Below are positions 1 to 58,056 of a stretch of DNA of 64,000 bases, piece after piece. The stretch is from positions 51,468-115,467 of the forward strand of contig CAZOKZ010000003.1 in NCBI GenBank assembly GCA_964580585.1, given 5' to 3'. The notes beneath the pieces were generated by a model. The model saw nothing but the letters and a program-made list of their open reading frames with translations. It did not search any database and was not told where the DNA came from. The position numbers and the translations under genes are program-made. This DNA is from an uncultured Candidatus Sumerlaeota bacterium. Lineage in GTDB: Bacteria; Sumerlaeota; Sumerlaeia; SLMS01; JAHLLQ01. Numbering within the stretch: the stretch's first letter is position 1; every line of letters starts with the position of its first letter.

Positions 1-412
1 TGCGGATTTTCGCCCGCATGGGACGTACACGTTTTATGTCAAGGTGCGTGGGGCGTTTCGTGTGTCGCTCGATGGGAAGCCAATCCTTGGGTCGGATGAC
101 CGTGACGCGCCACGTCGGTTGGCCCATGCTTCTGTCGAGATTGCGGAATCGGGACCGAGGTTGCTCGCGGTCGAGTTCGATCCACCCGCGTCGGGCGAGC
201 GGATGCTGAATCTGTACTGGACATGGCCGGGCGAGGGGACGATGCTGCGGCCTGTTGGGGGCGAATATACGCTGCCGCGCGAGCTTTCGCCTCTGGAACG
301 CGCGGCGACATTTGTGTGGCGAAGAAAAATCATTCTGCTCGCGGCGGGATTGGCTTTCGTGTTGCTGTTGATCCCCCTGGACAGCCGAAAACGGGACATT
401 CAGGCTGGTTGA
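1..412 (+). CDS. 3' end of a gene continuing from upstream of the window; hypothetical protein with C-terminal TM anchor (possible PA14-like beta domain)
   Basis: The frame is open from nt 2 to the stop at 410-412. The C-terminal hydrophobic stretch IILLAAGLAFVLLLIPL is followed by basic residues. The PA14-like call is impressionistic. Confidence 0.3.
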   Translation, partial: ADFRPHGTYTFYVKVRGAFRVSLDGKPILGSDDRDAPRRLAHASVEIAESGPRLLAVEFDPPASGERMLNLYWTWPGEGTMLRPVGGEYTLPRELSPLERAATFVWRRKIILLAAGLAFVLLLIPLDSRKRDIQAG

Positions 413-560: not shown

Positions 561-2432
561 ATGGCGGACGAACCATTGCCATTTGAGTATGAAGAGGACG
601 ACGAGGAACTCGGGACTGGGCGCCATGTGCATTTGCGTCTGAATGCGTCGCGCTTCAGCGACCTGCTCGAAAAAGGGCTGGTCGATCCCGACGATTTCGA
701 GATGGCGTTGCGCGAGAGCAGCAAGTCTGGCGATCAATTGAACAAAACGCTGATTCGCATGGGGCTGTGCGACGAGGAAGATATGCTCGAAGCCATCTCG
801 GGTTCGATGGGTGTGGAGTTCGTCAAGCTGACCGGGATGCATCTGGATCCGAAGCTGGCAACCAAGGTGCCCGCCAAGGTGGCCGAGCATTATAACCTGG
901 TGCCGGTGGCGATCGAAGACGGCGTGCTGAAGGTCGCGATTTCCGATCCGCTCGACATTCATACGCTCGATGAACTGCGTCGTATTCTGGCAATGGAAGT
1001 CGAACCTGTCGTCTCGACCAGCGAGGAAATCGAGAAGGCGCGTAACCGGTTTTACGGCATCGGTGGCGCGACGATGATGGGTCTCGAAGAAGAGCGCATC
1101 GCGGAAGGGGGCGAGGAAGAATTTGTGGTCGATTCGAATATTGAAATCGACAGCGAATTGGCCGCCGAGGACGCCGGTATTGTCCGGTTCGTGAACCAGC
1201 TCATTCAGGAAGCGTTCCGCGATCGCGCGACGGATATTCACGTCGAGCCGATGGAGAAAGACCTGCGGATTCGTTACCGCATCGACGGTGTGCTTTACGA
1301 GGCGCCGATTCCGCCTGCCATCAAACGCTATCAGCAGGCGATCATCAGCCGTATCAAGATCATGGCGGATTTGAACATTGCCGAGCGCCGCTTGCCGCAA
1401 GACGGCAAGATCATGATCAAGATGAATAACAAGGAGTTCGACCTTCGCGTTTCGACGGTGCCGACGCCCCACGGCGAATCCAGCGCCATCCGTATCCTTT
1501 CGCGCGACAGCGAGTTGTGTACGCTCGACCGGCTGGGTTTTTCGAACTATCACAAGAATATCATGCGCGAGATGATCAACAAGCCTCACGGCATTGTGTT
1601 GATCACGGGGCCGACGGGTTCGGGTAAATCGACCACGCTTTACGCATCGCTTTCGGAAATCAACACCCCCGAACGCAAGATCATCACCATCGAAGACCCG
1701 ATTGAATATCGTATCCCCGGTGTGACGCAAATTCAGGTCAATCCGTCTATTGATTTAACGTTCGCGCGTGTGTTGCGTACGATTCTGCGCCAAGACCCCG
1801 ACGTGATCATGGTGGGTGAAACGCGCGACCCGGAAACGGCCAAGATTACGATCCAGACAGCGCTCACGGGTCACTTGGTGTTCTCGACATTGCACACGAA
1901 CGACGCCTCGGGCGCGGTGACACGTCTCGAAGACATGGGGATCGAGCCGTTCCTGATTTCGTCGTCGGTGGAAGGTATTCTTGCCCAGCGTCTGGTGCGT
2001 GTGCTGTGCCCCGAATGTAAAGCGACGCATCGCCCCGAGGAACGCGTTATTGGCCAGGTGAACGTTGTGAACGAAGAAACGCATGCGATGAAGTTCTTCA
2101 AACCGGTGGGTTGCGAAGTTTGCCGTTACACAGGATTCCGCGGTCGTACGGCGTTGCTCGAAATGCTGAAGATGACCGAGCCGTTGCGCCGTATTATCGT
2201 TCAGGGAGCGTCGGCGAACGAAATTAAACTGAGCGCAATGAAGAGCGGCATGCGTCCGATTCGTTGGGACGGTTGGGACAAGATCAAGACGGGTATGACG
2301 ACGATCGACGAAGTGTTGCGCGTGACGATGGAAGACGAATTCGGTGGCGAAAACGTTAAGAACCTTCTGGCCGACACGCCGGACGCGATGGAACGTCTCG
2401 CCAAGCCGGAAGAAGACGTACCGACGTCCTGA
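561..2432 (+). CDS. gspE: Type II secretion / type IV pilus assembly ATPase (GspE/PilB family)
   Basis: Has an N-terminal T2SE_Nter-like domain, Walker A GPTGSGKST and Asp/His boxes. A tetracysteine motif (CPECK...CEVCRYTG) is present. A RBS-like GGAG precedes the ATG. Confidence 0.9.
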   Translation: MADEPLPFEYEEDDEELGTGRHVHLRLNASRFSDLLEKGLVDPDDFEMALRESSKSGDQLNKTLIRMGLCDEEDMLEAISGSMGVEFVKLTGMHLDPKLATKVPAKVAEHYNLVPVAIEDGVLKVAISDPLDIHTLDELRRILAMEVEPVVSTSEEIEKARNRFYGIGGATMMGLEEERIAEGGEEEFVVDSNIEIDSELAAEDAGIVRFVNQLIQEAFRDRATDIHVEPMEKDLRIRYRIDGVLYEAPIPPAIKRYQQAIISRIKIMADLNIAERRLPQDGKIMIKMNNKEFDLRVSTVPTPHGESSAIRILSRDSELCTLDRLGFSNYHKNIMREMINKPHGIVLITGPTGSGKSTTLYASLSEINTPERKIITIEDPIEYRIPGVTQIQVNPSIDLTFARVLRTILRQDPDVIMVGETRDPETAKITIQTALTGHLVFSTLHTNDASGAVTRLEDMGIEPFLISSSVEGILAQRLVRVLCPECKATHRPEERVIGQVNVVNEETHAMKFFKPVGCEVCRYTGFRGRTALLEMLKMTEPLRRIIVQGASANEIKLSAMKSGMRPIRWDGWDKIKTGMTTIDEVLRVTMEDEFGGENVKNLLADTPDAMERLAKPEEDVPTS

Positions 2433-2472
2433 GAGCGTCGGGGTAAACTTGGAATAGGATAACGACAGGCTG

Positions 2473-3891
2473 ATGCCTCAATTTTCATACAAAGCCAGGG
2501 ACGCAAAAGGTCAGCCGCAGTCGGGCACGATGGAGGCGGAATCGCGCGCGGCGGTGATTGCGCGTCTTCAGCAGTTGGAACTGTTTCCGATTTTGGTGAA
2601 GCAGGGAGATCGGACGTCGGCGAAGGGGGCGTCAAAATCGGCGCCTGTTGCGACGGCCGCCACTCCGCATACGGGAAACACTATCACGCGTATGTTGCCC
2701 AAGTTGGGATTTGGTGGCTCGGCGGAAGAATCGAAAACGGCAAAACGTTCGACGGTGTTGGTGAAAAAGCCAGGGGGAAAACCTTCGGCGAATGTCAAAC
2801 CGAAAGCGAAAGACGCGGCTGCCGAATCGAGCGGGATTTCTTTTCGTTCGCGCCGGATTAAAATGGCGGATGTGGCGTCGTTCAACCGCCAACTCGCGGA
2901 TTTGCTCGGTGCGGGCATTGCTTTGGTCAAGTCGCTGACGATTTTGCAAAAACAAACGCCGAACGCTGCGTTCAAGGCGATCATCAGCGAAATCAACACG
3001 GATGTTCAGGGCGGCGCGACGTTTGCCGATGCGTTGGCCAAGCACCCCGAGCAGTTTTCAAAATTGTACGTGGCGATGGTGCGAAGCGGTGAAGCGGGCG
3101 GTATGTTGGACGAGGTGCTGAATCGGCTCGCGGATTTCAGTGAAGCGGAAGAACAACTGAAGAGCCGTGTGAAATCGGCGTTGGCGTATCCCGTGGTGAT
3201 GATGATCGCGGGCAGCGCAGCGGTTGCGGTAATGTTCACTTATGTGGTGCCGAAAATCGTCAGTACGTTCGAGAACCTGAATCAAACGCTGCCTCCGATG
3301 ACGCAGGTTTTGATTACAATCAGCAAATTTTCACAGCAATATTGGTACGTGGTATTGATCGCACTGGCGGCAATGATCATTGGAGCCTGGCAATTTGTGC
3401 GCAGCGCCGAGGGACGGAAAATCTGGCATCGTATTCAACTCAAGTTGCCGTTGATGGGGGATGTGGTGCGCAAGCGCGAGGTCGCACGTTTTGCGCGCAC
3501 GCTGGGGTCGTTGCTGAAAAACGGCGTTTCCATATTGCAGGCACTCGCCATCACGCGCGAAGTGCTCAACAACGACTTGGTGAAGTATGAAGTCGATAAA
3601 ATCATCGATGAAATCACACAAGGTGCCAGCATTGCCGAACCGTTGCGCAACAGCATCATTTTCCCGGCAGTGACGGTGAACATGATGTCGGTGGGCGAGG
3701 AAACCGGCCAGCTCGAGACGGTGTTGTTGCGTATCAGCGATTCGTACGAGATGGAAGTTGATCGCAAGGTACGCACGCTGACGTCGTTGATCGAGCCATT
3801 GATTATCGTGCTCATGGGTTTTGTCGTGGGTTTCATCGTGATTGCGATGTTATTGCCGATCTTCAGTCTCGATCCGTCGGGAGGCGTCTAA
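2473..3891 (+). CDS. gspF: Type II secretion system platform protein GspF/PilC family, with ~100-aa low-complexity N-terminal insertion
   Basis: Carries two T2SSF-type repeats and three TM segments. A Lys/Ala/Pro-rich insert (aa ~45-140) lies between the first helix and the first F domain. Confidence 0.85.
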   Translation: MPQFSYKARDAKGQPQSGTMEAESRAAVIARLQQLELFPILVKQGDRTSAKGASKSAPVATAATPHTGNTITRMLPKLGFGGSAEESKTAKRSTVLVKKPGGKPSANVKPKAKDAAAESSGISFRSRRIKMADVASFNRQLADLLGAGIALVKSLTILQKQTPNAAFKAIISEINTDVQGGATFADALAKHPEQFSKLYVAMVRSGEAGGMLDEVLNRLADFSEAEEQLKSRVKSALAYPVVMMIAGSAAVAVMFTYVVPKIVSTFENLNQTLPPMTQVLITISKFSQQYWYVVLIALAAMIIGAWQFVRSAEGRKIWHRIQLKLPLMGDVVRKREVARFARTLGSLLKNGVSILQALAITREVLNNDLVKYEVDKIIDEITQGASIAEPLRNSIIFPAVTVNMMSVGEETGQLETVLLRISDSYEMEVDRKVRTLTSLIEPLIIVLMGFVVGFIVIAMLLPIFSLDPSGGV

Positions 3892-3962
3892 TGCGCGACG
3901 CGATTCGTTCCCTCTGCGGTTTTCGTTTTAATACCGCCCGGTTTGTCGGGGGACGGAGAATC

Positions 3963-4754
3963 GTGCGCCGTGGTTTTACGCTGATCGAATTGATGTTTGT
4001 GTTGGTTATACTGGGGATTATTCTGGCGACGACGTTACCGAAGATGCGCGGCTCGAACGAACGTTCGGCATTGCAAACGACGGCGCGCGATCTTGCCCGG
4101 CTATGCAATTATGCGCGCCAAGTTGCCGTTAGCTCGCAGGATTCCGTGACGTTGACAATTGCACGGGAAGATCGTCTGTGGTGGATCGATTTACCGGTGG
4201 ATGAGGACGATCGGTGGAATCGCCGCCATCGCGGTCGCGACCGGGAACCGGCCACGGACGAAGAAATCGAACGTAAATTGCACGACCGATTGAATTTCGC
4301 CGAAATTCTGGTCAATGGACGCGATGCCGAGGACGACGAGGTTATCATTACCTTCTACCCGAATGGAGGTTCGACAGGCGCGACGATTTTAATCGAGAGC
4401 CAGGGCGGTCGCCAGATGACCGTTGAGATCGAGAAGGCCACCGGACGTGCCAGCGCATATTCGGGCGAACCGCGGACGTTTGGAGAGAAGTTAGCCGCCG
4501 CGGGTGTCGATGCCAGCCGATACGGATCGGCGTATTCGCCCGGTGTGGTGGACGATGATGGCAATCCCGTGGCAGGCGCAGGCTTTAGTCGCGTTGCGGG
4601 GAGCGAAGATGAACGCGTGGCTGCCTACACGGATGTCGCGGCACGCATTATGGGCGGTGCGACGCGCAAGTATGATAAGGAACACAGTGGTACGTTCGAC
4701 AACCAGCCCCAGGAATCGTCGCCCGAACGTTACGTGGGGGGGCGTGGCCGATGA
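3963..4754 (+). CDS. Pseudopilin, GspH-like, with prepilin-type N-terminal cleavage/methylation motif (RRG|FTLIELMFVLVILGI)
   Basis: Has a class III signal motif G-F-x-x-x-E. The six-frame ORF begins at 3891, overlapping the gspF stop. A GTG at 3963 would give the canonical short leader MRRG. The C-terminal ~100 aa are disordered and Gly/Asp-rich, and the product is longer than a typical GspH. Confidence 0.55.
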   Translation: MRRGFTLIELMFVLVILGIILATTLPKMRGSNERSALQTTARDLARLCNYARQVAVSSQDSVTLTIAREDRLWWIDLPVDEDDRWNRRHRGRDREPATDEEIERKLHDRLNFAEILVNGRDAEDDEVIITFYPNGGSTGATILIESQGGRQMTVEIEKATGRASAYSGEPRTFGEKLAAAGVDASRYGSAYSPGVVDDDGNPVAGAGFSRVAGSEDERVAAYTDVAARIMGGATRKYDKEHSGTFDNQPQESSPERYVGGRGR

Positions 4755-5239
4755 AACATGCCCGTCCATTGCGTTTTAAACGCGACAGAAGCTTCGTGCT
4801 GCTCGAAGTCACCGTGGCGTTGATCATATTAGCCGTGGCGATGACGGGAATTTTACGTGGTTTCGTCATTGGATTGAATTCCATCCGCATGAATAAAATC
4901 GCCCTTTCGGCAACCTTGCTGGCGGAATCGATGCTCGAAGATTTTGAACTCGAACCGCCCATCGAAGGTCGCGACGAAGGTGAATTCGCCGACGATGATC
5001 GGTTCGGTGAAGATTTTAAAAATTTCAAATGGCGTTATCAGGTGAAGGAAGAAGAAGTCGATTACGACGATATTCCCAAAGACCCGCTTCAGGAGCCGGA
5101 ACCGTTGTACGAATTGGAATTGGATATTATTTATGACGACGGACGTCATCAGCCGTTTGTTCCGGTTTCGGTGACAACGTATTTGTTGGATACGCAACTT
5201 TTCAGCACCGATGCGCTGCAATCCAGCCAGTTGTTTTAA
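4751..5239 (+). CDS. Pseudopilin, GspI-like (prepilin-type N-terminal hydrophobic helix FVLLEVTVALIILAVAM)
   Basis: The N-terminus reads KRDRS-FVLLE with Glu at +5 and has Ser rather than Gly at the -1 position. The C-terminus is acidic. The 4-nt overlap with the upstream gene indicates translational coupling. Confidence 0.5.
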   Translation: MKHARPLRFKRDRSFVLLEVTVALIILAVAMTGILRGFVIGLNSIRMNKIALSATLLAESMLEDFELEPPIEGRDEGEFADDDRFGEDFKNFKWRYQVKEEEVDYDDIPKDPLQEPEPLYELELDIIYDDGRHQPFVPVSVTTYLLDTQLFSTDALQSSQLF

Positions 5240-5267
5240 CGACTCCGTCCCTCGAGGGCGAGAAAGC

Positions 5268-6323
5268 ATGAAGGACCGAATGAAATTAACGCTGCGAAAG
5301 GGATTCACGATCCTCGAGCTATTGCTCGCCGTGACGATCATGTCGTTGATTTCGATCGCGGTTTTTGCCGTGTTTCGCACGGCAACGTCGGCGTATAAAA
5401 GCGGTCATCGCGAGTCGTTACTTTTGCAGCGTGGTCGGTTTGCATTCGATACGTTCGAGCGCGATGTGATGAATATATTTTATCGCGACGAGGACACTTA
5501 TAACGAGCACACACGCGATTTGATCGAGGAGTATCAGGAGGATTTGCTGCGCGCGGAAGAAACCGGCGACTTTGAGGCTTTCAATGAGAAGTACGGTCCG
5601 TCGGATGACGACAGCAGCCCAAATAATACGGGTAACCCGTTTGAAAAAGGCAAGTTGATCGATCTGCAATTCAACGGCGAAGACAACGGGGAAAAGGATC
5701 GCATCACGTTTGCCGTTCGTGTGCCTCTGCGAGAAGGCGCGCCGTACTCAACATGGGGATTGGCACGCATTCATTATGCGCTCGAAGGCGATTTATTAAT
5801 CCGCACCAGCGAAACCGTCGAAGCAAACCCGCGCACCTGGGATGGACAGGTTCTCGAAAAGGAAATTCCGCCCGAATATACCATCGTTGCCGAAGGGGTG
5901 GATGAGTTCGATTTGAGTTATGGTTTCTGGATCGACAGCCAATGGTTCGAGGTGGACGGATGGACATCGAGCGGGCGCCAGATTCGCAATTCCAAATATC
6001 TGCTCGGCGAATACGACGAAGACGACCGGCCGACGGATCGAGGAGAATCGCAACCGGGTTCGACCGAGTTCAACGAAGAATTGAACGACCAGGAAACCGA
6101 ACCCTATGACGCGTTGCCTACCTATGTGCGCATTCGCCTGGTGCTTCAGGACCCGGAAAACGAGAGCAGCAAAACGCACTTAATGCGTGTGTTTCGCGTT
6201 CCGAGTTCTCAGGAGACTTGGGTCTCGAACGAGCAATTGGACGAAGAAGAGCGGGATATGGAATTGGATGTACGCGAATCGAAGTATATCCCCGTGTATC
6301 CTGGGGCGTTGAGGAAGAGTTGA
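5268..6323 (+). CDS. Pseudopilin, GspJ-like (RKG|FTILELLLAVTIMSLISIAV)
   Basis: Has a canonical G-F-T-x-x-E prepilin motif. The six-frame ORF extends to 5211, but MKDRMKLTL at 5268 is the likely start. The product has long acidic insertions. Confidence 0.55.
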   Translation: MKDRMKLTLRKGFTILELLLAVTIMSLISIAVFAVFRTATSAYKSGHRESLLLQRGRFAFDTFERDVMNIFYRDEDTYNEHTRDLIEEYQEDLLRAEETGDFEAFNEKYGPSDDDSSPNNTGNPFEKGKLIDLQFNGEDNGEKDRITFAVRVPLREGAPYSTWGLARIHYALEGDLLIRTSETVEANPRTWDGQVLEKEIPPEYTIVAEGVDEFDLSYGFWIDSQWFEVDGWTSSGRQIRNSKYLLGEYDEDDRPTDRGESQPGSTEFNEELNDQETEPYDALPTYVRIRLVLQDPENESSKTHLMRVFRVPSSQETWVSNEQLDEEERDMELDVRESKYIPVYPGALRKS

Positions 6324-7648
6324 TGCGCAGCGTTATTCGACATTGTTGGGATTGCCTCCGTCCCTCGCGATTGCGCGGGCGTGGCAAACAACTGCGTCCC
6401 CGTCGCCGCGCCGTGATGCTCATTCTCGTGTTGTGGATCGTTGTGATTTTGTCGTTGCTGGCTTACTCGTTGATTTACCAGATGACGTTGGAAACGCGTT
6501 TGACGTCCGCGCGCAAGAAAACCTTTCAAGCGAAGGCGTTGGCGCGTGCGGGGCTCGCAAAAGGCTTTGTCGATTTGCGCAACGATTTGATTGCCGATTT
6601 GTCCGACGAAACCGAGCCGCCTTTCGATGCCGAAGGCGATTATTGGGCCGATCCCGAGGACAAGGAAGAAGTGGAACTCGGCGATGGTGAATACACGGTG
6701 ATTGTCGAGGACGCAGAACGTTACTTCAACCTCAATACGTTCAAACCGTCGAACCGTATTTTGCTGCAGAAAATCATCGAACAAATCGGTTACGAAGAAG
6801 AGGACGCCAAAATCGTGGCATCGGCGATCATCGATTACGCCGACGAAGACGATGCCGCCGCTGTGGATTCGGCGCCGGGAACCGAAGGATTCACCTATGG
6901 GTTTTATCGTGCGGAGGACCTGGGAATGTCCAAACGAGATGAGGACATCGAAGAGGTCGTATTTCCCAACGAGCCGTACCTGACTGTGGATGCGTTGCTC
7001 GATGTGTACGGTGTGACACCGGACTTGTATTTCGGTCCCGGTTCGCCCGAAGCGGAATATTACAATCAAAACATCGAAGGAAAACAATACGGCAAACGTT
7101 TCCAGATTAAAAAGCGTCGCAGTTCGCATGACGATGAAATCGTCGGGCTGCGCGACTTCTTTACCGTCAAGGGTTTGGGCACGATCAACATGAATACCGT
7201 GCCGTTGCATGTCTTGACGGCTTATTTGGACGCCGCCGGTCGTCCGGACGCCGAACGCGTGGCTGACAAGGTTATCCGCGACCGTCGCGGGGGGTCTGCT
7301 CGCCGGATCGACAACGACAGCGCGTTTAAGACAGTTGGCGATTTGCAAAAAAACGGAACCCTGGCGTCGATGCTCGGACCCATGCAGGCCATGCACCCTT
7401 TCGATGTGCGTTCTTCCGTCTTCACATTGACGTCCACGGGTGTGATCGGGCAAGTGCGCTCGACATTGCAAGTAACGGTGACGCGTTCGATGGAAGAATT
7501 GCAACGCGTCGAGGATTTCGATACGAAGGAACGCGCGCGCGAACGGGATGAGCGCTACAAAGAACGTAGCGAACGTTGGAACGATAAGGAAGACGAATTG
7601 CTGGTGCGCATTCCATCGATCCGAATTTTGGAGTGGAACAGCAGATAA
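6323..7648 (+). CDS. GspK-like minor pseudopilin
   Basis: The N-terminus reads RRRAVMLILVLWIVVILSLLAYSL. This is a GspK-type N-terminal helix lacking the Glu+5. The ATG overlaps the TGA of the upstream gene (tgATG). Confidence 0.5.
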   Translation: MRSVIRHCWDCLRPSRLRGRGKQLRPRRRAVMLILVLWIVVILSLLAYSLIYQMTLETRLTSARKKTFQAKALARAGLAKGFVDLRNDLIADLSDETEPPFDAEGDYWADPEDKEEVELGDGEYTVIVEDAERYFNLNTFKPSNRILLQKIIEQIGYEEEDAKIVASAIIDYADEDDAAAVDSAPGTEGFTYGFYRAEDLGMSKRDEDIEEVVFPNEPYLTVDALLDVYGVTPDLYFGPGSPEAEYYNQNIEGKQYGKRFQIKKRRSSHDDEIVGLRDFFTVKGLGTINMNTVPLHVLTAYLDAAGRPDAERVADKVIRDRRGGSARRIDNDSAFKTVGDLQKNGTLASMLGPMQAMHPFDVRSSVFTLTSTGVIGQVRSTLQVTVTRSMEELQRVEDFDTKERARERDERYKERSERWNDKEDELLVRIPSIRILEWNSR

Positions 7649-7777
7649 TGGATGAAAGGGGAGGCACATCGATCACGGATGTTGCGGGTATTTTCGCTCT
7701 CGCGATGTCCTGAGGGAACGAAGAAAACGAAAGCCCTTGGGTTTTCTCATTTGAACAACGTGCCATGAAAACACATT

Positions 7778-9463
7778 ATGCCTAGATCGCTTGCCATAGA
7801 ACTGAACGAAGCCGATGCCAAAGTGGTGCAACTGCACCAGTCGAAGAAGGGCGAACTCGAATTGGAGTCGGCTTTCCAAGTCTCGTTCGAGCACATTCCG
7901 AAAGACGACAACGCCTTGGCGGAAAAAGCACGCCGTTTGCGGGATAAACTGCGCGAATACAAAGTCGCCGTCGCCGAAGACGTCGTGATTATTTTGCCGA
8001 AACAATGCGCCACCGTGCGAAAAGTTACCCTGCCATCCGCCGATGCCGACGAAGTGGCTTCGATGGTGGAATTTGAAGCGGAAAAAATCATCCCATTCAA
8101 CGTCGAGCGCCATATTATCGATTACCAATTGGCGGGCGATTACGATGTGAAGGGAACCGATGTGATCGTCGCCGCCATCGACGCGCCGGTAATGCAAGGA
8201 TGGCTGGATTTGTGCACGGCGGCGGGTATCGAACCGACGATGGCCGACGTTTCATCGCTCGCGCTCAGCTACGGGTTGCTGAAGAATGTCGAGGTGGCGA
8301 CACAAAAGGGCACTTTCATCGCCATCCAGGTGGGACTCCAGCATACAGACATTACGTTGTATCAAGATGGCCAAGTGATTTGGGCGCGCAGTGTTATGCA
8401 TGGAGTTCGGCACCTGGAACGGGCGTTGCGCGACACCATGCATTTAAAACGCGACTTGGATTATCGCGAACTCGATACGTTGAACTTAATGTATCCGCAC
8501 GAATTCACATTGCCAGGCGTCAAAGCGCAACCGGCTCAATTGAAAGAGGACGAGGACACGGACTTTCTGCTCTTTGACGAAGAGGAAAAACGTCAAAAAA
8601 CGGAAACGACCATTTCGGCCATTCGCTCGTGGGTGAAAAAACTCGTTCAGAATATTCAACGCACTTATGAATTCGGCATACGTGAATATTCCATCGGGCC
8701 GATTCAGAAGATTTTCATTTCCGGGGAAGGTTCGATCATTCCCGGTTTCGCCGATATCTTGCAGAAACATTTCGGTGTAAAAGGCGAAGTTTTCAATCCA
8801 ACCGATATGCTGCCTGTTTCGCATATTGCCAAAGTGGAAGAAAACGACCTTCCCGTTTTTGCGTGCAGTTACGGCGCGGCGTTACGTTGCATTCGCGGTG
8901 AACATCGCGAGTCGATCAATTTGCTGCCGCCGGAAATTGTCGCCAAACAAATTCAATCCGAACGCATGGTGCACTACATCGTTACTGGATCGGTCGCGTT
9001 GATCGCTCTGGTTATGTTGTTCATGTTCATTTCATCGCACCTGGAGCATCAACGTATCCTGGGGGACAATTATTCTCAGTACATTTCCGACATGGATGAT
9101 TTGCTACAGGAAGTGGACGACAAAGAAAGTCGAATGGATATTATCCGGACGAAACGCTCGGACAAAGGCGGTGCGCTCGAAATTCTCGAAGGCATCAGTA
9201 ATTATCCCGTGATTGGTCCGTCCCCGCAAGGTTCGGTGACCATGACACGATTCGATTATAAGCTGGGCGAGGTCGTGCGCGTGGATGGCCACGCCATGGA
9301 AATCAGCAACATCAACGAATTCGTTAAGTACTTGAAGACTTTGGAAGCGAAGGGTGAGCCGATATTTCAAAGTGTCGATATTCGCAGCCAGAATCCCACG
9401 AATTTGCCACGGCGCGATCGCAAGATTTATCAGTTCCAAATCGAAGGCATTTTGGGCGAATAA
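7778..9463 (+). CDS. GspL-like / PilM-PilN fusion inner-membrane assembly protein
   Basis: An ~390-aa cytoplasmic actin-like (PilM-type) domain is followed by a single TM (VHYIVTGSVALIALVMLFMFI). It ends in a ~150-aa periplasmic PilN-like domain. Confidence 0.5.
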   Translation: MPRSLAIELNEADAKVVQLHQSKKGELELESAFQVSFEHIPKDDNALAEKARRLRDKLREYKVAVAEDVVIILPKQCATVRKVTLPSADADEVASMVEFEAEKIIPFNVERHIIDYQLAGDYDVKGTDVIVAAIDAPVMQGWLDLCTAAGIEPTMADVSSLALSYGLLKNVEVATQKGTFIAIQVGLQHTDITLYQDGQVIWARSVMHGVRHLERALRDTMHLKRDLDYRELDTLNLMYPHEFTLPGVKAQPAQLKEDEDTDFLLFDEEEKRQKTETTISAIRSWVKKLVQNIQRTYEFGIREYSIGPIQKIFISGEGSIIPGFADILQKHFGVKGEVFNPTDMLPVSHIAKVEENDLPVFACSYGAALRCIRGEHRESINLLPPEIVAKQIQSERMVHYIVTGSVALIALVMLFMFISSHLEHQRILGDNYSQYISDMDDLLQEVDDKESRMDIIRTKRSDKGGALEILEGISNYPVIGPSPQGSVTMTRFDYKLGEVVRVDGHAMEISNINEFVKYLKTLEAKGEPIFQSVDIRSQNPTNLPRRDRKIYQFQIEGILGE

Positions 9464-9481
9464 GGGAGACCAACCGCTATC

Positions 9482-10015
9482 ATGAAGAAGAGTGAAAAAA
9501 TACTGATGGGAATCACCATCGCGGCTGTTGGTTTCTGGTTAATATCAACAGCGATGAGCACGGACGACACGGCTTCGTCCTCGGTGGATGTGGAACGTTT
9601 GCGCGAAGATTACAATCAACGCAAAGAACAAATTGCATTGGCGCCCCAGATTTACCGCAACTTTTACGAACTCGTGGGTCAGGATGTCGTCAGCCGAAGC
9701 ACTCGGCCCGATCTTGATTTCCAGGAAGACGTTGCCGCGTGGTGCAAGCAATACGGATTCAATGCACCGAACATTGAAAAAGATGTCGAAAACATTAAAG
9801 AAGTAGAAGATTACCAGTTGGTGATCGTTCGTGTGACAATTCGCGATGCGGAATATGGGAAAGTCGCCCAGTTACTGAAGGACTTTGAGGGCTATGGGTT
9901 GATTATTCAAGAAGTCGATATGCAAAGCCGTATTGATCGCGACCTGTTGAGCTCTGTAACCATTTCCGTGGCGCGATTGGTTCCGCATTTCATGGACAAA
10001 ACACGCCGTCGTTGA
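9482..10015 (+). CDS. GspM/PilO-like bitopic membrane protein
   Basis: Has an N-terminal TM (ILMGITIAAVGFWLISTAM) and a periplasmic ~140-aa domain. Its position directly after the GspL-like gene supports the call. Confidence 0.35.
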   Translation: MKKSEKILMGITIAAVGFWLISTAMSTDDTASSSVDVERLREDYNQRKEQIALAPQIYRNFYELVGQDVVSRSTRPDLDFQEDVAAWCKQYGFNAPNIEKDVENIKEVEDYQLVIVRVTIRDAEYGKVAQLLKDFEGYGLIIQEVDMQSRIDRDLLSSVTISVARLVPHFMDKTRRR

Positions 10016-10053
10016 GGACTTGCTGTAAACGTTATTAACATTTCGACCATTGG

Positions 10054-10617
10054 ATGAAAGAGACAGTCATGTTGGATCAATATTCAGTTGAACAAAAATT
10101 GTTAGGCGCGAACGTGCTCCTGTTCATCGTTATTACGGTTGCCGGCGTGGCGATGATGGTGCATCGGCCTGAAATTCCTGCCGATCCGCCGCTCGACGAA
10201 TTGCGTGGAATGCTGTCGGACATTTCGCTCGAAGTGCGCACCGACCCGAATCGCAACGCGTCGGACGAATTTACGAAATTTGGAAACGCGCCTATCTTTG
10301 AAACGTTAATATTATTACCAACGCCGTCGCCCACTCCCGAACCAACGCCGGAACCGCCACCGAGCCTGAAAGACGCCATCTTGGCATGGAAAGTCAAAGC
10401 CATTGCGGGAACGTTGGTAATTGTAGAAGACCCGCGTACGCGCGACGAATTCGTCATGGATTTAACGAAAAAAGACGAACCGAAGATTACGCGTTATCGT
10501 AATATTGAAATGCCGATTTACCTGGATTCGATCGATTCGCAAAATTACAAGGCGACGTTCAAATATACCAGCAGTCAAGGCGCACAGACGGTGACGAAAG
10601 GGATGTTTGACGAATAA
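10054..10617 (+). CDS. PilP/GspC-like protein (TM anchor, Pro-rich linker PTPSPTPEPTPEPPP, C-terminal beta domain)
   Basis: Architecture and position are the only evidence; this is the last gene of the cluster. Confidence 0.3.
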   Translation: MKETVMLDQYSVEQKLLGANVLLFIVITVAGVAMMVHRPEIPADPPLDELRGMLSDISLEVRTDPNRNASDEFTKFGNAPIFETLILLPTPSPTPEPTPEPPPSLKDAILAWKVKAIAGTLVIVEDPRTRDEFVMDLTKKDEPKITRYRNIEMPIYLDSIDSQNYKATFKYTSSQGAQTVTKGMFDE

Positions 10618-15381: not shown

Positions 15382-16233
15382 ATTTTTTTCTCCCCAGACC
15401 TCCCGAAGTCTCATGATGCCCGGTCGCGTCATCGAAAAATCGTAACGCGTCGGATCGTCAGGCGCGATGGCGCGTAGGGCATCGGTGATTTCCACTGCCG
15501 TGCGCAGGTCCGCCGTTTTGCGCGTTGTCAGTTTCAGCAACTCCGCCACGGCGAGCACGTGTGTATCGACGGGCATGATCAGGCGGCTGGGGGCGACATT
15601 CCACAGCCCTAAATCGATGCCGTCGTTTGGCCGACAAACCCAGCGCAAAAACAAATTCATGCGTTTGCAGCCGCTTTTTTTCGCGGGCGGCGTGAGCAAC
15701 AAATGCGCGCCCGACGGCAATGGGGACGGAGGCGCATCGCGCCGCGCCAGTGTGCGTTTTCGCGTGCGAAGGCCGGTGATTTTCTGCTCTGTCAATGCTT
15801 CGATCCAGCGTTGCAGCGTCGGCAAAATCGTCGATTCGTTTGGTTCGTCCAGCGATTGCCACATCGCGCCGAGCGATCCGTGCGTGCGCAATGCGCCGCC
15901 GATCCACGCCAGGTACAGACGTAAATCTTCGGCGCGAACCCAACGGTAAACGAACCCGCGATATAGACGCGCCCAGTCTTTCGGTTCGCGGGCGGCGAGC
16001 GCTCTGGCGGGATGGGGACGGAGGGGACGCAGAACGGTGTCCACGGCTCCTTGGATGGCTTTCACGTTGCCGAACGCGAACGACGCGGCGATCAGCGCGA
16101 CGACTTCGCGGTCGGCGGGGTCGTCGAATGTGTGCACGACGCCAAGCGGATCGGTGCCGAGCAGCGCTGGGTCGTGGTACTCGGCGTAGAGGTCGTCGAG
16201 CAGCGCGCGGAGAGCTTTCTGGCGGGCGTTCAT
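15337..16233 (-). CDS. TIGR02757-family (DUF2400) conserved hypothetical protein
   Basis: The C-terminal region has the characteristic LFLRWxxRP-DG-DLGLW and PVDTH motifs. The start overlaps the stop of the downstream DUF2339-like gene (operon). Confidence 0.55.
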   Translation of the reverse strand: MNARQKALRALLDDLYAEYHDPALLGTDPLGVVHTFDDPADREVVALIAASFAFGNVKAIQGAVDTVLRPLRPHPARALAAREPKDWARLYRGFVYRWVRAEDLRLYLAWIGGALRTHGSLGAMWQSLDEPNESTILPTLQRWIEALTEQKITGLRTRKRTLARRDAPPSPLPSGAHLLLTPPAKKSGCKRMNLFLRWVCRPNDGIDLGLWNVAPSRLIMPVDTHVLAVAELLKLTTRKTADLRTAVEITDALRAIAPDDPTRYDFSMTRPGIMRLREVWGEKNNHRGTETRRDHGEK

Positions 16234-19200
16234 GGAGTGCTGGAGCCTTCATCGTTGGGGGACGGAGGCACGGATGGTTCGGAATCGGGTTTTTCTTGCG
16301 GCAACAATCGGCGTTGCAAAAACACGTACGCCAATCCACCGAAAATCGTGAACAACCCGACGGCGAAGAATGCCACACCTTTGGTGCGAAGCGGAGACGA
16401 AACCAGATCGTGCGCGAAAATACGGGCGATCGTGAAAATTAACGTTGAGATACCCGCGTATCGAAAAGCTCTGTCCGCCATGAGTAAACCCGAGACGATT
16501 AACGCGATAAACACAACGCCCCACGAGGCGGTAATCAACACGTCGGTGACTAACGCGCCGCTTGCAAGAAAGACCAAGCCTGTTAGGGTGCCCGCAAATA
16601 CGAGCCAGTAGTTCATTGCCGGTGAAAAGAAAGCTTGCCAGAATTTCGATAGCTGTTCGACGTCGAATCTTTGTTTCGCGATTAGAAGAAGTCGGTGCGC
16701 AACGAGTGCCAACAACGCCACGCCAAGCCCGCAGAGCGCGTCGAAACGTGGTACGGAATTAAGGGTAACGAACGCCGCGATGCAGAAGGAGGGAATCAGC
16801 ATGAGCCAGGGGACGGAGACGGCAAGAAGGGCAAATCGACGTCGTGCAATTCCCAGGACGTAGAAAATGCCGACCGAAATCATTGCGCCGAAAATAAAAG
16901 GGATTTCTCCGTCCCCGAATACAAATAACGCGCCGTTCCAAACGACGGTAACTGCAAGCAGTATGAGCGTTTGCGCCACGAAATTCGATTTCATCCGACG
17001 CGCGGTCATGAACCATGCGCCGATTCCGGCAATAGAGAGAACTCCTGCCGAAACCAGGTTTGTTTTTGCGTCCACCATCACGGCGAGCAACAATGCAAGT
17101 CCCGCCAACGCCAAACCGCCAAAGTATCCCGGTCGAAAAATTTCCCAAGTCGTGTCGAAGGAGTTGTGGCGAAATTTTTCGTAGGGATCGACATCGGGTT
17201 GGCGAACCAGAACTGGCAATTCGGGCAGGCGGTTGCCCAACAATGCAATGAATGCCGCGGCGCCAGCCATTAAAGCGGCAAGGATGCCGCTGAACGGATC
17301 GTGATGTTCGAGCCGTACGCCTGCATAAAGAATGAGGCATAACGCGATGCAAAGTTGAACAAGAATGTTCAAAATTCGCGCGGGTAAATGCAGCGTTTTG
17401 CGCGCACAATCGCCCCACAAGTAGAGCATCGCGCCCCACCAGACGAATTGCAGGGGCACGTAACGCGCGGTGCTGCCGGCATTATCCATCATGAAAAAAA
17501 ACGCGCCCAGACAGAATATAACCGTACCAAGAAACCAGGCACGAGCACGCAATACTGCCATGCCAAGCACCAGGAGCGAGGATGCGATGCCCACACTGAG
17601 AATGATACCCAGATCGTTGTTGTTAAAATATTCTCCCATGGCCCAAATAATCGAAACGACTGCGACCAAAGACCGAAATTGTCCCGCACCCAGTTCAATC
17701 CACATCAACGGCCCGTGTGTGAATGATTCGACTTTGCGTACCCAGATGCGCTCCCATGGCAAGGCAGACGCGAGCAGGAAAATTCCCGGTAACATGGCCG
17801 CTACGAAATCGAATGGTGTCGTCAATGCGACCGATTTGAAATACGGCAACACGGTGAGAAATGCGCAAACGGCCGTCAGGGGACGGAGCCAGCGCATTCC
17901 GCGCGAGCGCGTCGCGGCAATTGCCACGACCAGCGCCATTGCCGCCATCACGGCGCTTTCCGCCATGCCGCTGAACGCCGCGACAATGCCCGATGCCGCC
18001 AGGACAAACACCATCAACGCGTGAAAGCCCAGCAGCGTGCCACGCCGTAACATCGGGACGAACAACCGCGCGGCTTCAAGTCCCGCCAGCGCAAACAGCA
18101 GCACATGCACACGATCCCAAAAGACGCTGGTGCTCCAAACCAGATAAACCGAAAGGGCGCTGAACAGCAGCGAATTCAGCAACGCGCCTCCCGTGGAAAA
18201 TGGGCTGGATTCCAGAACGATTTCCGGTGCGGCGTCGTGGCGGACGGCTTCCTCGGCGGCGCGTTCTCGCGCCAGCCAGATTCGTCCCCATTTCAAAAAC
18301 GCGGCACTGAAAACAAGGTGGTAAAATAATAACGCGCCGAGATGAGTCATCACGGGGAGGGGTGAATGGTCGATAGGCGAAATGATCCACAGCCCTAATG
18401 TGGCAAGGTACGTTCCCACCAGCGCTAACGAGGTCAGACGTTTCCACTCGTGGCGCACGAGCAATACTCCGGCAGCAAGCGCAAGGACCGAGAGGTTGAT
18501 CAACGCGAAACCCGCGCTGGTGTTGGCGCTGATTAATGCCGCCAGCACCCCGAGACCGAAGCCCATTCCCGCGACGCCTTCCGAACGCCATCTTTCCGCC
18601 AGCCCGACGATTCCGCCTGCGAATCCCACCATCAACAGCAGGGCGAACATCCGTGGGAAAATCGCCATCGCGTCGATAAACCCGCCTCCGAAAGACACAA
18701 AGTAGGCGAGCGCCAACGAAATAGCGATGGTGACGTGTCCGGCAGTTTCCGACCGCCGTTTTGCCCAGAATCCCGCTAGGCCGAGCATCCCGGCCACACC
18801 GTATCCGATGCCGACCTTCAGCCATGGGCTATCGAACAACGCGGCGATGATGGCCGCGCCAATCAGCGCGAACACACCGCCAATACGAGGCAACCATGTT
18901 GTCATCAAGCGCACTTCCCAGCCCTCGTCGCGCTTTGCGGGGGACGGAGCCGGTGGTGTCGCTTTCGCAATCTTGCCGTGGAACTCTTCTTCGCTCATGA
19001 ACTGCGCGGGAGCTGGGGATGGAGCAGAGTATGGCGGTTGTTGAACCGCAGGTGTAACGGGAATGGGTGGAGACACTTGAGGGGGTGTGTGTTCAACCGG
19101 GGTTGCTGGTGGTGGTGTCGGTGTTTCGGCCAGATGATCGAACGCCGGAGGGGCTGGCGGGGCGATCTCGACGGGTGGGTGTGTTTCCTGGGCCGCAACG

Positions 19201-19472
19201 GGTAGCGCCACGGGTTCTTCGGTTTCTTCCGGGATGGAAACCGGTTTCGGGATTTCTATCGGTTCGGAAGGCGCTGGTTCGGCAGCGGGAGTTTCGAGCG
19301 AAGCCGCAACCGAAGCAGCCGGAGTTTCATATTCAGGAGCATGCGTCAGGTCTTGATTTTCGACAGCCGACTCCCGAGCTTCCATCTCGCGCACGCGGGC
19401 TTCGAGAGCCTCCAGACGGCGCGATTGCTCGGTAATCAGTTGACGTAACTGTTCGATGTCGGATTCGGCCAT
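16230..19472 (-). CDS. Large polytopic membrane protein, DUF2339-like
   Basis: Has an N-terminal coiled coil (LEALEARVREMEARE) and a Pro-rich linker (~150 aa). More than 20 predicted TM helices follow. Confidence 0.5.
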   Translation of the reverse strand: MAESDIEQLRQLITEQSRRLEALEARVREMEARESAVENQDLTHAPEYETPAASVAASLETPAAEPAPSEPIEIPKPVSIPEETEEPVALPVAAQETHPPVEIAPPAPPAFDHLAETPTPPPATPVEHTPPQVSPPIPVTPAVQQPPYSAPSPAPAQFMSEEEFHGKIAKATPPAPSPAKRDEGWEVRLMTTWLPRIGGVFALIGAAIIAALFDSPWLKVGIGYGVAGMLGLAGFWAKRRSETAGHVTIAISLALAYFVSFGGGFIDAMAIFPRMFALLLMVGFAGGIVGLAERWRSEGVAGMGFGLGVLAALISANTSAGFALINLSVLALAAGVLLVRHEWKRLTSLALVGTYLATLGLWIISPIDHSPLPVMTHLGALLFYHLVFSAAFLKWGRIWLARERAAEEAVRHDAAPEIVLESSPFSTGGALLNSLLFSALSVYLVWSTSVFWDRVHVLLFALAGLEAARLFVPMLRRGTLLGFHALMVFVLAASGIVAAFSGMAESAVMAAMALVVAIAATRSRGMRWLRPLTAVCAFLTVLPYFKSVALTTPFDFVAAMLPGIFLLASALPWERIWVRKVESFTHGPLMWIELGAGQFRSLVAVVSIIWAMGEYFNNNDLGIILSVGIASSLLVLGMAVLRARAWFLGTVIFCLGAFFFMMDNAGSTARYVPLQFVWWGAMLYLWGDCARKTLHLPARILNILVQLCIALCLILYAGVRLEHHDPFSGILAALMAGAAAFIALLGNRLPELPVLVRQPDVDPYEKFRHNSFDTTWEIFRPGYFGGLALAGLALLLAVMVDAKTNLVSAGVLSIAGIGAWFMTARRMKSNFVAQTLILLAVTVVWNGALFVFGDGEIPFIFGAMISVGIFYVLGIARRRFALLAVSVPWLMLIPSFCIAAFVTLNSVPRFDALCGLGVALLALVAHRLLLIAKQRFDVEQLSKFWQAFFSPAMNYWLVFAGTLTGLVFLASGALVTDVLITASWGVVFIALIVSGLLMADRAFRYAGISTLIFTIARIFAHDLVSSPLRTKGVAFFAVGLFTIFGGLAYVFLQRRLLPQEKPDSEPSVPPSPNDEGSSTP

Positions 19473-57951: not shown

Positions 57952-58056
57952 TTCGCTTTTCTCTCCCGAGTTTCCATTTGCCCTTGATACCCCCCGGGAA
58001 TTGAGGCGCCATAGTCCCAGGGTGAGTTTATAATCGAATCGGTAGAATACTTTCGC

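What the first reader, a model, noticed from the sequence alone, without database searches (positions are those of the whole stretch)
561..10617. Secretin-less, GspG-less T2SS / type IVa pilus hybrid operon with elongated minor pseudopilins
Nine co-directional, mostly overlapping genes encode a GspE ATPase and a GspF platform with a ~100-aa Lys/Ala-rich insert. Four minor-pseudopilin-like proteins follow (H/I/J/K-like), all much longer than canonical and carrying acidic or disordered tails. A PilM-PilN fusion (GspL-like), a PilO/GspM-like gene and a PilP/GspC-like gene close the cluster. No major pseudopilin (GspG/PilA), secretin (GspD/PilQ) or prepilin peptidase is in or next to the cluster. 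The GspI-like protein has Ser rather than Gly at the predicted cleavage -1 position. This may be a lineage-specific fibre or secretion apparatus rather than a classical T2SS.
Basis: partly seen in the sequence, partly recalled or inferred. Interest (0 to 1): 0.6.

Follow-up and report, generated by a model that had tools for sequence, protein, structure and literature searches.

The report
Sumerlaeota type II secretion core operon
This is the core operon of a type II secretion-like machine that is conserved across the uncultivated phylum Sumerlaeota; its outer-membrane channel gene follows the operon in deeper-branching relatives but is not next to it in this genome's clade, so the find is a rearranged variant of a known machine rather than a new kind of apparatus.

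Summary
The nine co-directional genes at 561-10617 are real and their identities hold. They are GspE, GspF, GspH/I/J/K-like pseudopilins, a PilM-TM-periplasmic fusion (GspL-equivalent), a GspM/PilO-fold protein and a GspC/PilP HR-domain protein; the last two were shown only by structure prediction.

No major pseudopilin, secretin or prepilin peptidase lies in the 64-kb window or in the 2.1 kb recovered upstream.

The source is a Sumerlaeota (BRC1) genome. The order E-F-H-I-J-K-L-M-C is kept in every one of 22 Sumerlaeota loci long enough to show it. In the deeper-branching lineages, and in an unassigned outgroup, a true secretin gene follows directly. That gives E-F-H-I-J-K-L-M-C-D, the Xanthomonas Xps order minus gspG.

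The window belongs to one monophyletic subclade in which the secretin is no longer adjacent. Published KEGG counts for 16 Sumerlaeota MAGs list gspD, pilQ, many gspG-like genes and one prepilin peptidase in nearly all of them.

So "secretin-less, GspG-less" describes the operon, not the system. Whether this genome keeps the orthologous secretin could not be tested. I rate it a new variant of a known kind, of modest interest.

The parts
1..412 (+). 3' end of g0, a 659-aa polytopic membrane protein with a weak PA14-like stretch. It is conserved just upstream of gspE only in the secretin-unlinked clade. Whether it belongs to the system is uncertain.
   Evidence: Full gene on L001 523-2502. No Pfam or NCBIfam hit. 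PA14-type 'antifreeze protein' region at E 0.003, residues 508-578. Orthologues lie upstream of gspE in L007, L008, L011, L012, L014, L016 and L021.
561..2432 (+). g1: GspE/PilB-family assembly ATPase with an MshEN-type N-terminal domain.
   Evidence: T2SSE 452 bits and MshEN 75 bits. GspE 608 bits against PilB 587. Best PDB matches are PilF 6f8l (3e-159) and PilB, then GspE 4pht (3e-124).
2473..3891 (+). g2: GspF inner-membrane platform with a clade-specific low-complexity linker of about 70-77 aa (roughly residues 45-121).
   Evidence: TIGR02120 427.8 bits, above the 424 cutoff. The linker is present only in the window clade; GspF is 404-429 aa in the other clades. Composition A13 K11 G9 S9 T8 P6 of 77 residues.
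3891..4754 (+). g3: GspH-like minor pseudopilin (G28|F29, E at +5) with a C-terminal low-complexity tail of about 100 aa.
   Evidence: Pfam GspH 34.1 bits and N_methyl 30.5 bits. TIGR01708 E 2e-14. Length is 262-287 aa in the window clade against 202-226 aa elsewhere.
4751..5239 (+). g4: GspI/XpsI-like minor pseudopilin (S14|F15, E at +5).
   Evidence: XpsI E 8.4e-9 over residues 13-134, and GspI E 2.7e-4. The -1 residue is S, A or G among 18 orthologues.
5268..6323 (+). g5: GspJ-position minor pseudopilin (G12|F13, E at +5), 351 aa and acidic (pI 4.5).
   Evidence: TIGR01711 GspJ E 1.9e-5, N-terminal 70 residues only. Conserved at this position in all loci. The start is confirmed by a gene call on record.
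6323..7648 (+). g6: GspK-like minor pseudopilin with no Glu at +5, 441 aa.
   Evidence: NF037980 GspK 84 bits, plus T2SSK_1st and T2SSK. The family profile hits XcpX 5vtm_X at E 2e-11. Start ATG at 6323.
7778..9463 (+). g7: full-length PilM-like actin-fold domain, one TM segment (397-423) and a periplasmic domain of about 140 aa. This is a GspL-equivalent PilM-PilN-type fusion.
   Evidence: PilM_2 88 bits, T2SSL 30.7 bits, TIGR01175 102.6 bits. The profile hits PilM 3jc8_Ma at 1e-26 and no GspL chain. Pfam PilN matches only 3 of 14 members weakly. TM segment.
9482..10015 (+). g8: GspM/PilO-type bitopic protein (TM helix, coiled coil, ferredoxin-like domain).
10069..10617 (+). g9: GspC/PilP-type protein. 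It has a TM anchor, a disordered Pro/Thr-rich linker and a C-terminal beta HR domain, with no PDZ domain and no lipobox.

Best explanation
The cluster is the core operon of a T2SS-type member of the type IV filament superfamily, conserved across the phylum Sumerlaeota.

It encodes these parts:
- the cytoplasmic motor (GspE);
- the inner-membrane platform (GspF);
- the four pseudopilins that form the tip and priming complex (H, I, J, K);
- the assembly sub-complex that links motor to periplasm: g7 (a PilM-TM-periplasmic fusion, the equivalent of GspL), g8 (GspM/PilO fold) and g9 (GspC/PilP HR-domain protein).

Inferred working, by analogy with Gsp/Xps systems:
1. An unlinked prepilin peptidase cleaves H, I, J and K after a small -1 residue (G, S, G, A).
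2. I-J-K, capped by the large K, nucleate a short pseudopilus built from one of the many unlinked GspG-like subunits.
3. GspE, held by the PilM-like domain of g7, drives assembly through GspF.
4. The HR domain of g9 docks the platform onto a secretin in the outer membrane, through which folded exoproteins are expelled. In this polysaccharide-degrading phylum these are probably glycoside hydrolases.

Evolution: the ancestral locus ended with that secretin (E-F-H-I-J-K-L-M-C-D). In the subclade that holds this genome the secretin gene has left the locus, most likely to another place in the genome.

Shown: gene identities, folds of g8 and g9, conserved order, secretin linkage in other lineages. 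Inferred: substrate, partner pseudopilin, and the present location of the secretin.
For: Family assignments come, and the folds of g8 and g9.

The same order is found in every locus long enough to show it, among 22 genome loci of which 19 are titled Sumerlaeota/Sumerlaeia/BRC1. g7 identity falls as low as 25%, and no pilin gene ever lies between F and H.

A secretin lies directly downstream of g9 on the same strand in L017, L018, L019, L020, L026, L027 and L028, and in the outgroup L029/L030. These genes carry Pfam Secretin plus Secretin_N. All metagenome relatives of that secretin that have upstream DNA carry the cluster.

The secretin-unlinked loci form one clade in a neighbour-joining tree of F+K+L.

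All nine ORFs are intact and conserved within that clade (29-76% identity), including the HR domain of g9.

PMC8092238, data set S1e, gives for Sumerlaeota MAGs: gspD 1-7 copies in 15 of 16, pilQ in 14 of 16, gspG 1-26 copies, pilD in 15 of 16, and lpxA-D/lpxK present.

The Xps cluster order is E F G H I J K L M C D, with gspO outside it and an XpsC that has an HR domain but no PDZ (PMC11981180).

gspD and gspO are treated as 'loner' genes in the curated T2SS model (PMC6668835).
Against: - No major pseudopilin is linked in any of the roughly 40 loci examined, which is unusual for T2SS loci.
- The ATPase scores almost as well as PilB, and its closest solved relatives are T4aP ATPases.
- g7 matches PilM far better than GspL.
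- The linked secretins score equally as GspD and PilQ.
- GspE, H, I, J and K all fall below NCBIfam equivalog cutoffs.
- The presence of an orthologous secretin in this genome, or in any genome of its subclade, was not shown. The KEGG counts do not say which secretin serves which machine.
- No secretion substrate is known and the phylum is uncultivated.
Confidence: 0.6

Rival explanations
1. It is a type IVa-like pilus machine that builds a surface fibre for adhesion, twitching or DNA uptake, and not a secretion system. The H-I-J-K proteins would be the pilus tip complex, and the major pilin would be one of the many unlinked pilin genes.
For: - The closest solved ATPases are PilF and PilB, and the PilB equivalog score of 587 is close to the GspE score of 608.
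- g7 carries a full PilM domain.
- g1 has an MshEN domain, which is typical of pilus ATPases.
- g9 has only an HR domain, like PilP.
- The linked secretin scores 185 bits as PilQ against 188 as GspD.
- PMC8092238 reports 'type IV pilus-dependent twitching' genes in all Sumerlaeota MAGs.
Against: - GspF passes the GspF equivalog cutoff but is far below the PilC cutoffs (355 against 700).
- The H-I-J-K order with a GspK-type cap, and the overall E...L-M-C-D order, match Xps T2SS.
- g9 is TM-anchored like GspC, not a lipoprotein like PilP.
- There is no PilT, PilY1 or PilA in the window or in any locus.
- The MAGs have separate pilB/pilC/pilM/pilO/pilQ copies that could make the real T4aP.
Confidence: 0.25
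2. In this subclade the machine has truly lost its dedicated secretin and has been repurposed. It would either borrow the PilQ of another system or work without an outer-membrane channel, as a periplasmic or envelope-spanning pseudopilus with a new partner such as the upstream g0 membrane protein.
For: - Loss of linkage coincides in one clade with three other changes: gain of g0 upstream, a disordered GspF linker, and a GspH tail of about 60-80 aa.
- No secretin lies within 54 kb downstream in the window, or within 3-10 kb in seven related loci.
- The metagenome scan recovered no unlinked orthologue.
Against: - The HR domain of g9 is retained and conserved in the clade.
- gspD and pilQ are counted in subgroup 1 and subgroup B MAGs.
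- The scan patterns were derived from the linked secretins, so they were biased against divergent unlinked copies.
- g0 sits next to an ABC permease gene and may simply be a syntenic neighbour.
Confidence: 0.1
3. The cluster is a decaying remnant left after the secretin was lost.
For: Only the absence of D, G and O in cis.
Against: - All nine ORFs are intact and have class III signal motifs where expected.
- Three junctions are overlapping start/stop junctions.
- Orthologues are intact in at least 10 genomes of the clade at 29-76% identity.
Confidence: 0.03

Closest known systems
Xps-type T2SS of Xanthomonas (xpsE-F-G-H-I-J-K-L-M-C-D, with gspO elsewhere; PMC11981180)
   Same: - The gene order is the same as the ancestral Sumerlaeota locus (E F H I J K L M C D).
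- The prepilin peptidase is unlinked.
- The GspC homologue has a TM anchor and an HR domain but no PDZ.
- An L-M-C assembly trio is present.
   Different: - No gspG is in the locus in any Sumerlaeota genome.
- The L-equivalent keeps a complete PilM-type domain (561 aa, against about 370-400 aa).
- J (about 350 aa) and K (about 440 aa) are much longer.
- In the window's subclade gspD is also unlinked.
- Sequence scores are below equivalog cutoffs for E, H, I, J and K.
Type IVa pilus machinery (PilB, PilC, PilMNOPQ; Myxococcus, Pseudomonas, Thermus)
   Same: - The ATPase and the PilM domain are closest to T4aP proteins in the PDB.
- PilO-like and PilP-like folds are present.
- T4aP genes are usually spread over several loci (PMC6668835).
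   Different: - PilM and the PilN-equivalent are fused.
- The platform protein is GspF-like.
- The minor subunits are of GspH/I/J/K type and order.
- There is no PilT/PilU, PilY1 or PilA.
- The PilP-equivalent is not a lipoprotein.
Dispersed T2SS loci in which gspD and gspO are 'loner' genes in the TXSScan/MacSyFinder model (PMC6668835)
   Same: The secretin and the peptidase are encoded away from the main locus.
   Different: Here the major pseudopilin is also unlinked, and the lineage carries many GspG-like paralogues (6-26 in 15 of the 16 MAGs, one in the other).
Akkermansia Amuc_1098-1102 pilus-like cluster (Amuc_1101 PilM-like family)
   Same: g7 gives a partial hit to the Amuc_1101 family (98.7 bits over residues 18-209). 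A weak g7 relative, P0017, sits in an Amuc_1100/1102-type locus.
   Different: The score is far below the family cutoff of 650. That cluster has no GspE, GspF or H-K genes. It is a distinct system.

Membership tests
Type IV filament (TFF) superfamily | A GspE/PilB-family hexameric assembly ATPase and a GspF/PilC polytopic platform encoded together | tested here: met
   T2SSE 452 bits and T2SSF 209 bits with two stretches. The genes are adjacent, with a 40-nt gap.
Type IV filament (TFF) superfamily | Subunits with class III signal peptides (small residue at -1, hydrophobic helix, Glu at +5) | tested here: met
   g3 G|FTLIE, g4 S|FVLLE, g5 G|FTILE. g6 A|VMLIL lacks E5, as GspK does. N_methyl or TIGR02532 hits.
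Type II secretion system (Gsp/Xps) | GspF-type platform | tested here: met
   TIGR02120 427.8 bits, at or above the 424 cutoff. PilC models score 343-355 against a cutoff of 700.
Type II secretion system (Gsp/Xps) | GspE-type ATPase | tested here: inconclusive
   TIGR02533 608.4 bits, below the 630.25 cutoff, with PilB at 587.4. PDB matches favour PilF and PilB. No phylogeny with reference sets was run.
Type II secretion system (Gsp/Xps) | Minor pseudopilins GspH, I, J, K in that order | tested here: met
   H is above the Pfam cutoff. K profile against XcpX gives E 2e-11. I (XpsI 8e-9) and J (2e-5) are weak but in the right positions. The order is kept in 22 loci. No structures were predicted for H-K.
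Type II secretion system (Gsp/Xps) | GspL-GspM assembly pair | tested here: met
   g7 scores 30.7 bits for T2SSL (cutoff 25.5), although PilM is the better match. The g8 model matches EpsM, PulM and PilO. The periplasmic domain of g7 compared with g8 by hhalign gives only 19% probability.
Type II secretion system (Gsp/Xps) | GspC with an HR domain that binds the secretin | tested here: met
Type II secretion system (Gsp/Xps) | Secretin GspD | tested here: not met
   None in the 64-kb window, in the 2.1 kb upstream, or in the window-clade loci. It is present directly downstream in the other Sumerlaeota lineages.
Type II secretion system (Gsp/Xps) | Major pseudopilin GspG | tested here: not met
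   No further class III signal protein lies in the window or in the clusters of any locus. One unlinked major-pilin-like gene (N-terminal matches to both PilA and GspG models) lies in L021, 5 kb away. KEGG lists 1-26 gspG per MAG.
Type II secretion system (Gsp/Xps) | Prepilin peptidase GspO/PilD | tested here: not met
   No Peptidase_A24 hit among the window ORFs scanned. K02654 is present in 15 of 16 MAGs. It is accepted as a 'loner' gene in T2SS models.
Type II secretion system (Gsp/Xps) | Secretes folded periplasmic proteins across the outer membrane | not testable with these tools
   Uncultivated phylum; no substrate data.
Type IVa pilus | Retraction ATPase PilT and major pilin PilA belonging to the system | tested here: not met
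   There is no second T2SSE-family ORF and no PilA-like ORF in the window. These are often unlinked in T4aP, so this test is not decisive.
Type IVa pilus | Separate PilM, PilN, PilO, PilP (a lipoprotein) and PilQ | tested here: not met
   PilM is fused to the TM and periplasmic part. g9 has a TM helix and no lipobox Cys. PilQ is absent from the window.
Verru_Chthon cassette (TIGR02596-TIGR02600) | Full-length matches to cassette proteins A-D | tested here: not met
   Only N-terminal matches: 34.7 bits (cutoff 70) for g3 and 16 bits (cutoff 256) for g5.

The most novel reading that the evidence does not exclude
In one Sumerlaeota subclade a T2SS-type machine has lost its dedicated secretin gene, not merely moved it. 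In the same clade it gained a PA14-bearing polytopic membrane protein upstream, a disordered GspF linker and an extended GspH. It would now work with a borrowed PilQ-type channel or a different envelope partner. That would be a natural case of a secretin swap or of secretin independence in a cell with two membranes.
Probability: 0.12. Interest if true: 0.55.

Novelty: new variant of a known kind. Interest (0 to 1): 0.3.

Why it matters
T2SS biology rests almost entirely on Proteobacteria. This locus documents a phylum-wide, non-proteobacterial T2SS-type system with three notable traits:
- it keeps the Xps gene order but never carries its major pseudopilin in cis;
- its GspL-equivalent is still a complete PilM-PilN-type fusion, a plausible intermediate between T4aP PilM/PilN and GspL;
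- its J and K pseudopilins are unusually large.

The clean split between secretin-linked and secretin-unlinked clades gives a natural comparison for asking how tightly the platform and the secretin co-evolve.

For genome annotation, it gives names to two families now labelled 'hypothetical': g8 as GspM/PilO-like and g9 as GspC/PilP-like. For Sumerlaeota ecology, it points to the likely export route for their polysaccharide-degrading enzymes.

It is not a new class of machine.

Tried and rejected
- A single-sequence scan of genome contigs with g7 found nothing. A profile was needed.
- A single-sequence word-indexed search with g9 found only itself. The alignment query worked.
- Attempts to reach further upstream on the 125-kb NCBI contig failed. 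Only short Logan contigs carry g1 and g7, and g2 is not on record.
- A metagenome scan with the secretin profile recovered only cluster-linked secretins. It therefore could not show an unlinked orthologue for the window's clade.
- hhalign of the periplasmic domain of g7 against the g8 family was inconclusive (19% probability). Pfam PilN matched only 3 of 14 g7-family members weakly.
- Promoter and terminator scans were at or below chance.
- There were no Rfam hits, so no riboswitch lies upstream of gspE. There were also no tandem repeats or tRNAs.
- Rejected: g3 as the major subunit, because it matches GspH over its full length and GspG only in the N-terminal helix.
- Rejected: membership of the Verru_Chthon cassette or the Amuc_1101 cluster, because the scores are far below cutoff.
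- Rejected: Ser at -1 as a processing defect, because orthologues vary between G, A and S.

Full report
**1. The observation**

The region 561-10617 holds nine + strand genes. With refined starts (g5 at 5268, g6 at 6323, g9 at 10069), all nine products match gene calls already on record from a 125,364-bp NCBI contig and from Logan assemblies of run SRR13617028. Each is a singleton at 90% identity and none carries a name.

Three junctions overlap: g2/g3 by 1 nt, g3/g4 by 4 nt and g5/g6 by 1 nt. The others have gaps of 18-129 nt. "Mostly overlapping" is therefore a slight overstatement.

HMM searches give the following:
- g1: GspE/PilB ATPase. T2SSE 452 bits, MshEN 75 bits; TIGR02533 GspE 608 bits (cutoff 630); PilB 587 bits.
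- g2: GspF. TIGR02120 427.8 bits, above the 424 cutoff.
- g3: GspH. Pfam 34.1 bits, above the cutoff of 21.
- g4: XpsI/GspI-like. E 8e-9 and 3e-4, both below cutoffs.
- g5: GspJ-like in its N-terminal 70 residues only (E 2e-5).
- g6: GspK-like. NF037980 84 bits. A profile of 18 orthologues hits P. aeruginosa XcpX (5vtm_X) at E 2e-11.
- g7: PilM_2 88 bits, TIGR01175 103 bits, T2SSL 30.7 bits (above 25.5). It has a single TM segment at 397-423 followed by about 140 periplasmic residues.
- g8 and g9: no hit in Pfam or NCBIfam, nor by family profile against PDB sequences.

**2. The two unnamed proteins**

**3. What is not there**

- Pfam scans of all larger ORFs of the window found no Secretin, T2SSG or Peptidase_A24 domain, and no second T2SSE ATPase.
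- A class III signal-motif scan found only g3 and g5. g4 is found with a looser motif.
- phmmer, and an HMM built from eight related secretins, found no secretin in any ORF of the window.
- A Logan contig (L001) extends 2.09 kb upstream. It holds the end of an ABC permease gene and a 659-aa polytopic membrane protein (g0) that matches no family.

The refuting scenario named in the finding, a G/D/O set immediately upstream, is excluded for those 2.1 kb. Further upstream could not be reached.

**4. Lineage and conservation**

Relatives of g7 are few and are labelled Sumerlaeia or Poribacteria. A profile scan of GTDB species genomes returned 22 loci, of which 19 are titled Sumerlaeota, Sumerlaeia or BRC1.

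BLAST of the window proteins against all ORFs of these loci shows the order E-F-H-I-J-K-g7-g8-g9 in every locus long enough to show it. g7 identity falls to 25%. No pilin gene ever lies between F and H.

The g8 family has only 75 clusters at 50% identity among 1.84 billion representatives. The g9 family comprises 24 proteins, all named 'hypothetical', and every one that carries an organism name is from Sumerlaeota.

Long J (327-462 aa) and long K (428-518 aa) are general to the family. The long GspH (262-287 aa, against 202-226) and the GspF linker are specific to the window's subclade.

The GspF insert is a hypervariable low-complexity linker between the small N-terminal domain and the first T2SSF repeat. 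It is about 70-77 aa here (A13 K11 G9 S9 T8 P6). GspF is 404-429 aa in the other clades.

**5. The secretin**

The nearest relative of g7 outside the family, at 26% identity (P0016), lies in a locus that reads E, F, GspH, I, J, K, PilM/PilN, 219 aa, 209 aa, Secretin.

Using that secretin as a query, a secretin gene was found directly after g9, on the same strand, in L017 (BRC1 ADurb.Bin183), L018, L019, L020, L026, L027 and L028 (DG2.163). These genes carry Pfam Secretin and Secretin_N above cutoff. They score equally as GspD (188 bits) and PilQ (185 bits).

Sixteen metagenome contigs encode relatives of this secretin. Every one that has upstream DNA carries the cluster upstream.

No secretin is present in the window (54 kb downstream of g7) or in L007, L008, L009, L011, L014, L016 and L021 (3-10 kb downstream).

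In a neighbour-joining tree of concatenated F+K+L, the unlinked loci form one clade. All other lineages with enough downstream DNA, and the outgroup, are linked.

The simplest reading is an ancestral E-F-H-I-J-K-L-M-C-D locus and a single loss of linkage in the ancestor of the window's subclade. The genes after g9 differ even among close relatives: a GNAT gene here, Cupin_5 in L003, GH20 in L005. This fits a rearrangement breakpoint at that spot.

**6. Comparison with known systems**

The ancestral order equals that of the Xanthomonas Xps T2SS (E, F, G, H, I, J, K, L, M, C, D) minus G. In Xps the prepilin peptidase is also unlinked, and XpsC also has an HR domain without a PDZ domain (PMC11981180).

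The curated TFF models of Denise et al. set gspO and gspD as 'loner' genes. The same paper notes T2SS in non-proteobacterial phyla that have little or no experimental support (PMC6668835).

On the T4aP side:
- The ATPase is closest in the PDB to PilF and PilB.
- g7 matches PilM (3jc8_Ma, E 1e-26) and no GspL chain.
- Its periplasmic part matches Pfam PilN only weakly, in 3 of 14 members.

"Hybrid" is thus a fair description of the sequence affinities. The architecture, however, is T2SS-like.

**7. Are G, D and O in the genomes?**

Fang et al. (PMC8092238) tabulate KEGG orthologues for 16 Sumerlaeota MAGs:
- gspD: 1-7 copies in 15 of 16.
- pilQ: in 14 of 16.
- gspG: 1-26 copies, and 6-26 in 15 of the 16.
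- pilD: 1-2 copies in 15 of 16.
- pilB: up to 8 copies. pilC: up to 7.
- The lpxA-D/lpxK/waaA set is present, so the cells have an LPS outer membrane.

Subgroup B MAGs (CSSed165cm_369 and _452, which are my L012 and L015 inside the window's clade) are listed with gspD 1-2 and pilQ 1-2.

One unlinked pilin with a major-pilin-type N-terminus lies 5 kb from the cluster in L021. It scores 62 bits against a Myxococcus PilA model and 51 bits against GspG, both over the N-terminal segment only.

These data make "elsewhere in the genome" the likely answer. They do not show which secretin or pseudopilin serves this machine, and the window's own genome could not be searched.

**8. Ser at -1**

g4 reads RDRS|FVLLE. 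Among 18 orthologues the -1 residue is S (6), A (7) or G (5). From general knowledge of prepilin peptidases, small residues at -1 are tolerated, if less well than Gly. The variation among orthologues argues that this is normal for the family.

**9. Mechanism (inferred)**

1. An unlinked PilD-type peptidase processes H, I, J and K.
2. I-J-K, with the large K as cap, prime a pseudopilus of an unlinked GspG-like subunit.
3. GspE is held at the membrane by the PilM-like domain of g7 and powers assembly through GspF.
4. g7, g8 and g9 form the L-M-C sub-complex.
5. The HR domain of g9 docks on the N0 domain of a secretin.

The substrates are probably secreted glycoside hydrolases, given the chitin- and polysaccharide-degrading gene sets reported for the phylum. 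This last point is speculation.

The main rival is a T4aP-like fibre machine (confidence 0.25). A real loss of the secretin with repurposing is not excluded (about 0.1).

**10. Verdict**

The cluster is a lineage-typical, rearranged T2SS-type core operon: a new variant of a known kind, of modest interest (0.3).

Noticed in passing
window 1-412 (full gene on L001 523-2502): A 659-aa polytopic membrane protein lies directly upstream of gspE. It matches no Pfam or NCBIfam family and has a weak PA14-like stretch (residues 508-578, E 0.003 to the PA14 region of an ice-binding adhesin). It is conserved in that position only in the secretin-unlinked clade, always after an ABC permease gene. It could be a pilin- or envelope-modifying enzyme, or just a syntenic neighbour.
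   Followed up: partly
window 663-800 (g1 residues 35-80): The N-terminus of GspE matches the MshE-type c-di-GMP-binding motif model NF053729 at 34 bits, just under its 38-bit cutoff. This suggests possible c-di-GMP control of the ATPase.
   Followed up: no
L027 17780-18892; L046 7739-8851; L047 3109-4221: In one Sumerlaeota lineage a second, shorter secretin-like ORF of about 370 aa lies about 0.5 kb downstream of the cluster-linked secretin.
   Followed up: no
L034 4679-5191 and 5225-5779: One metagenome locus carries two tandem copies of the g9 (GspC/PilP-like) gene between g8 and the secretin.
   Followed up: no
L029 13816-15748 (- strand): In the outgroup locus, TMEM260-like (GT-C fold) genes lie about 1.6 kb downstream of the secretin. 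Together with g0 in the window clade, this hints at a recurrent large membrane-protein neighbour of these clusters.
   Followed up: no
window 16230-19472 (- strand): A 1080-aa protein has an N-terminal coiled coil, a Pro/Ala-rich segment of about 130 aa and about 20 predicted TM helices. It gives only a sub-threshold DUF2339 match. It accounts for the strong AT skew (0.22) at 16-18 kb.
   Followed up: partly
window 28808-31723 (+): A 971-aa protein combines an arylsulfotransferase (ASST) beta-propeller with two Lcl_C domains. It could be a candidate secreted or surface enzyme.
   Followed up: no
window 56734-58077 (- strand): An ExbB/ExbD (MotA/TolQ-type) pair. This fits a two-membrane envelope with energised outer-membrane transport.
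   Followed up: no
L031 1845-6404: A weak g7 relative (P0017, 23% identity) sits in an Akkermansia-like Amuc_1102 / PilM-like / Amuc_1100 cluster. This shows that PilM-like fusion proteins are used in another, GspE-less pilus-like locus.
   Followed up: no
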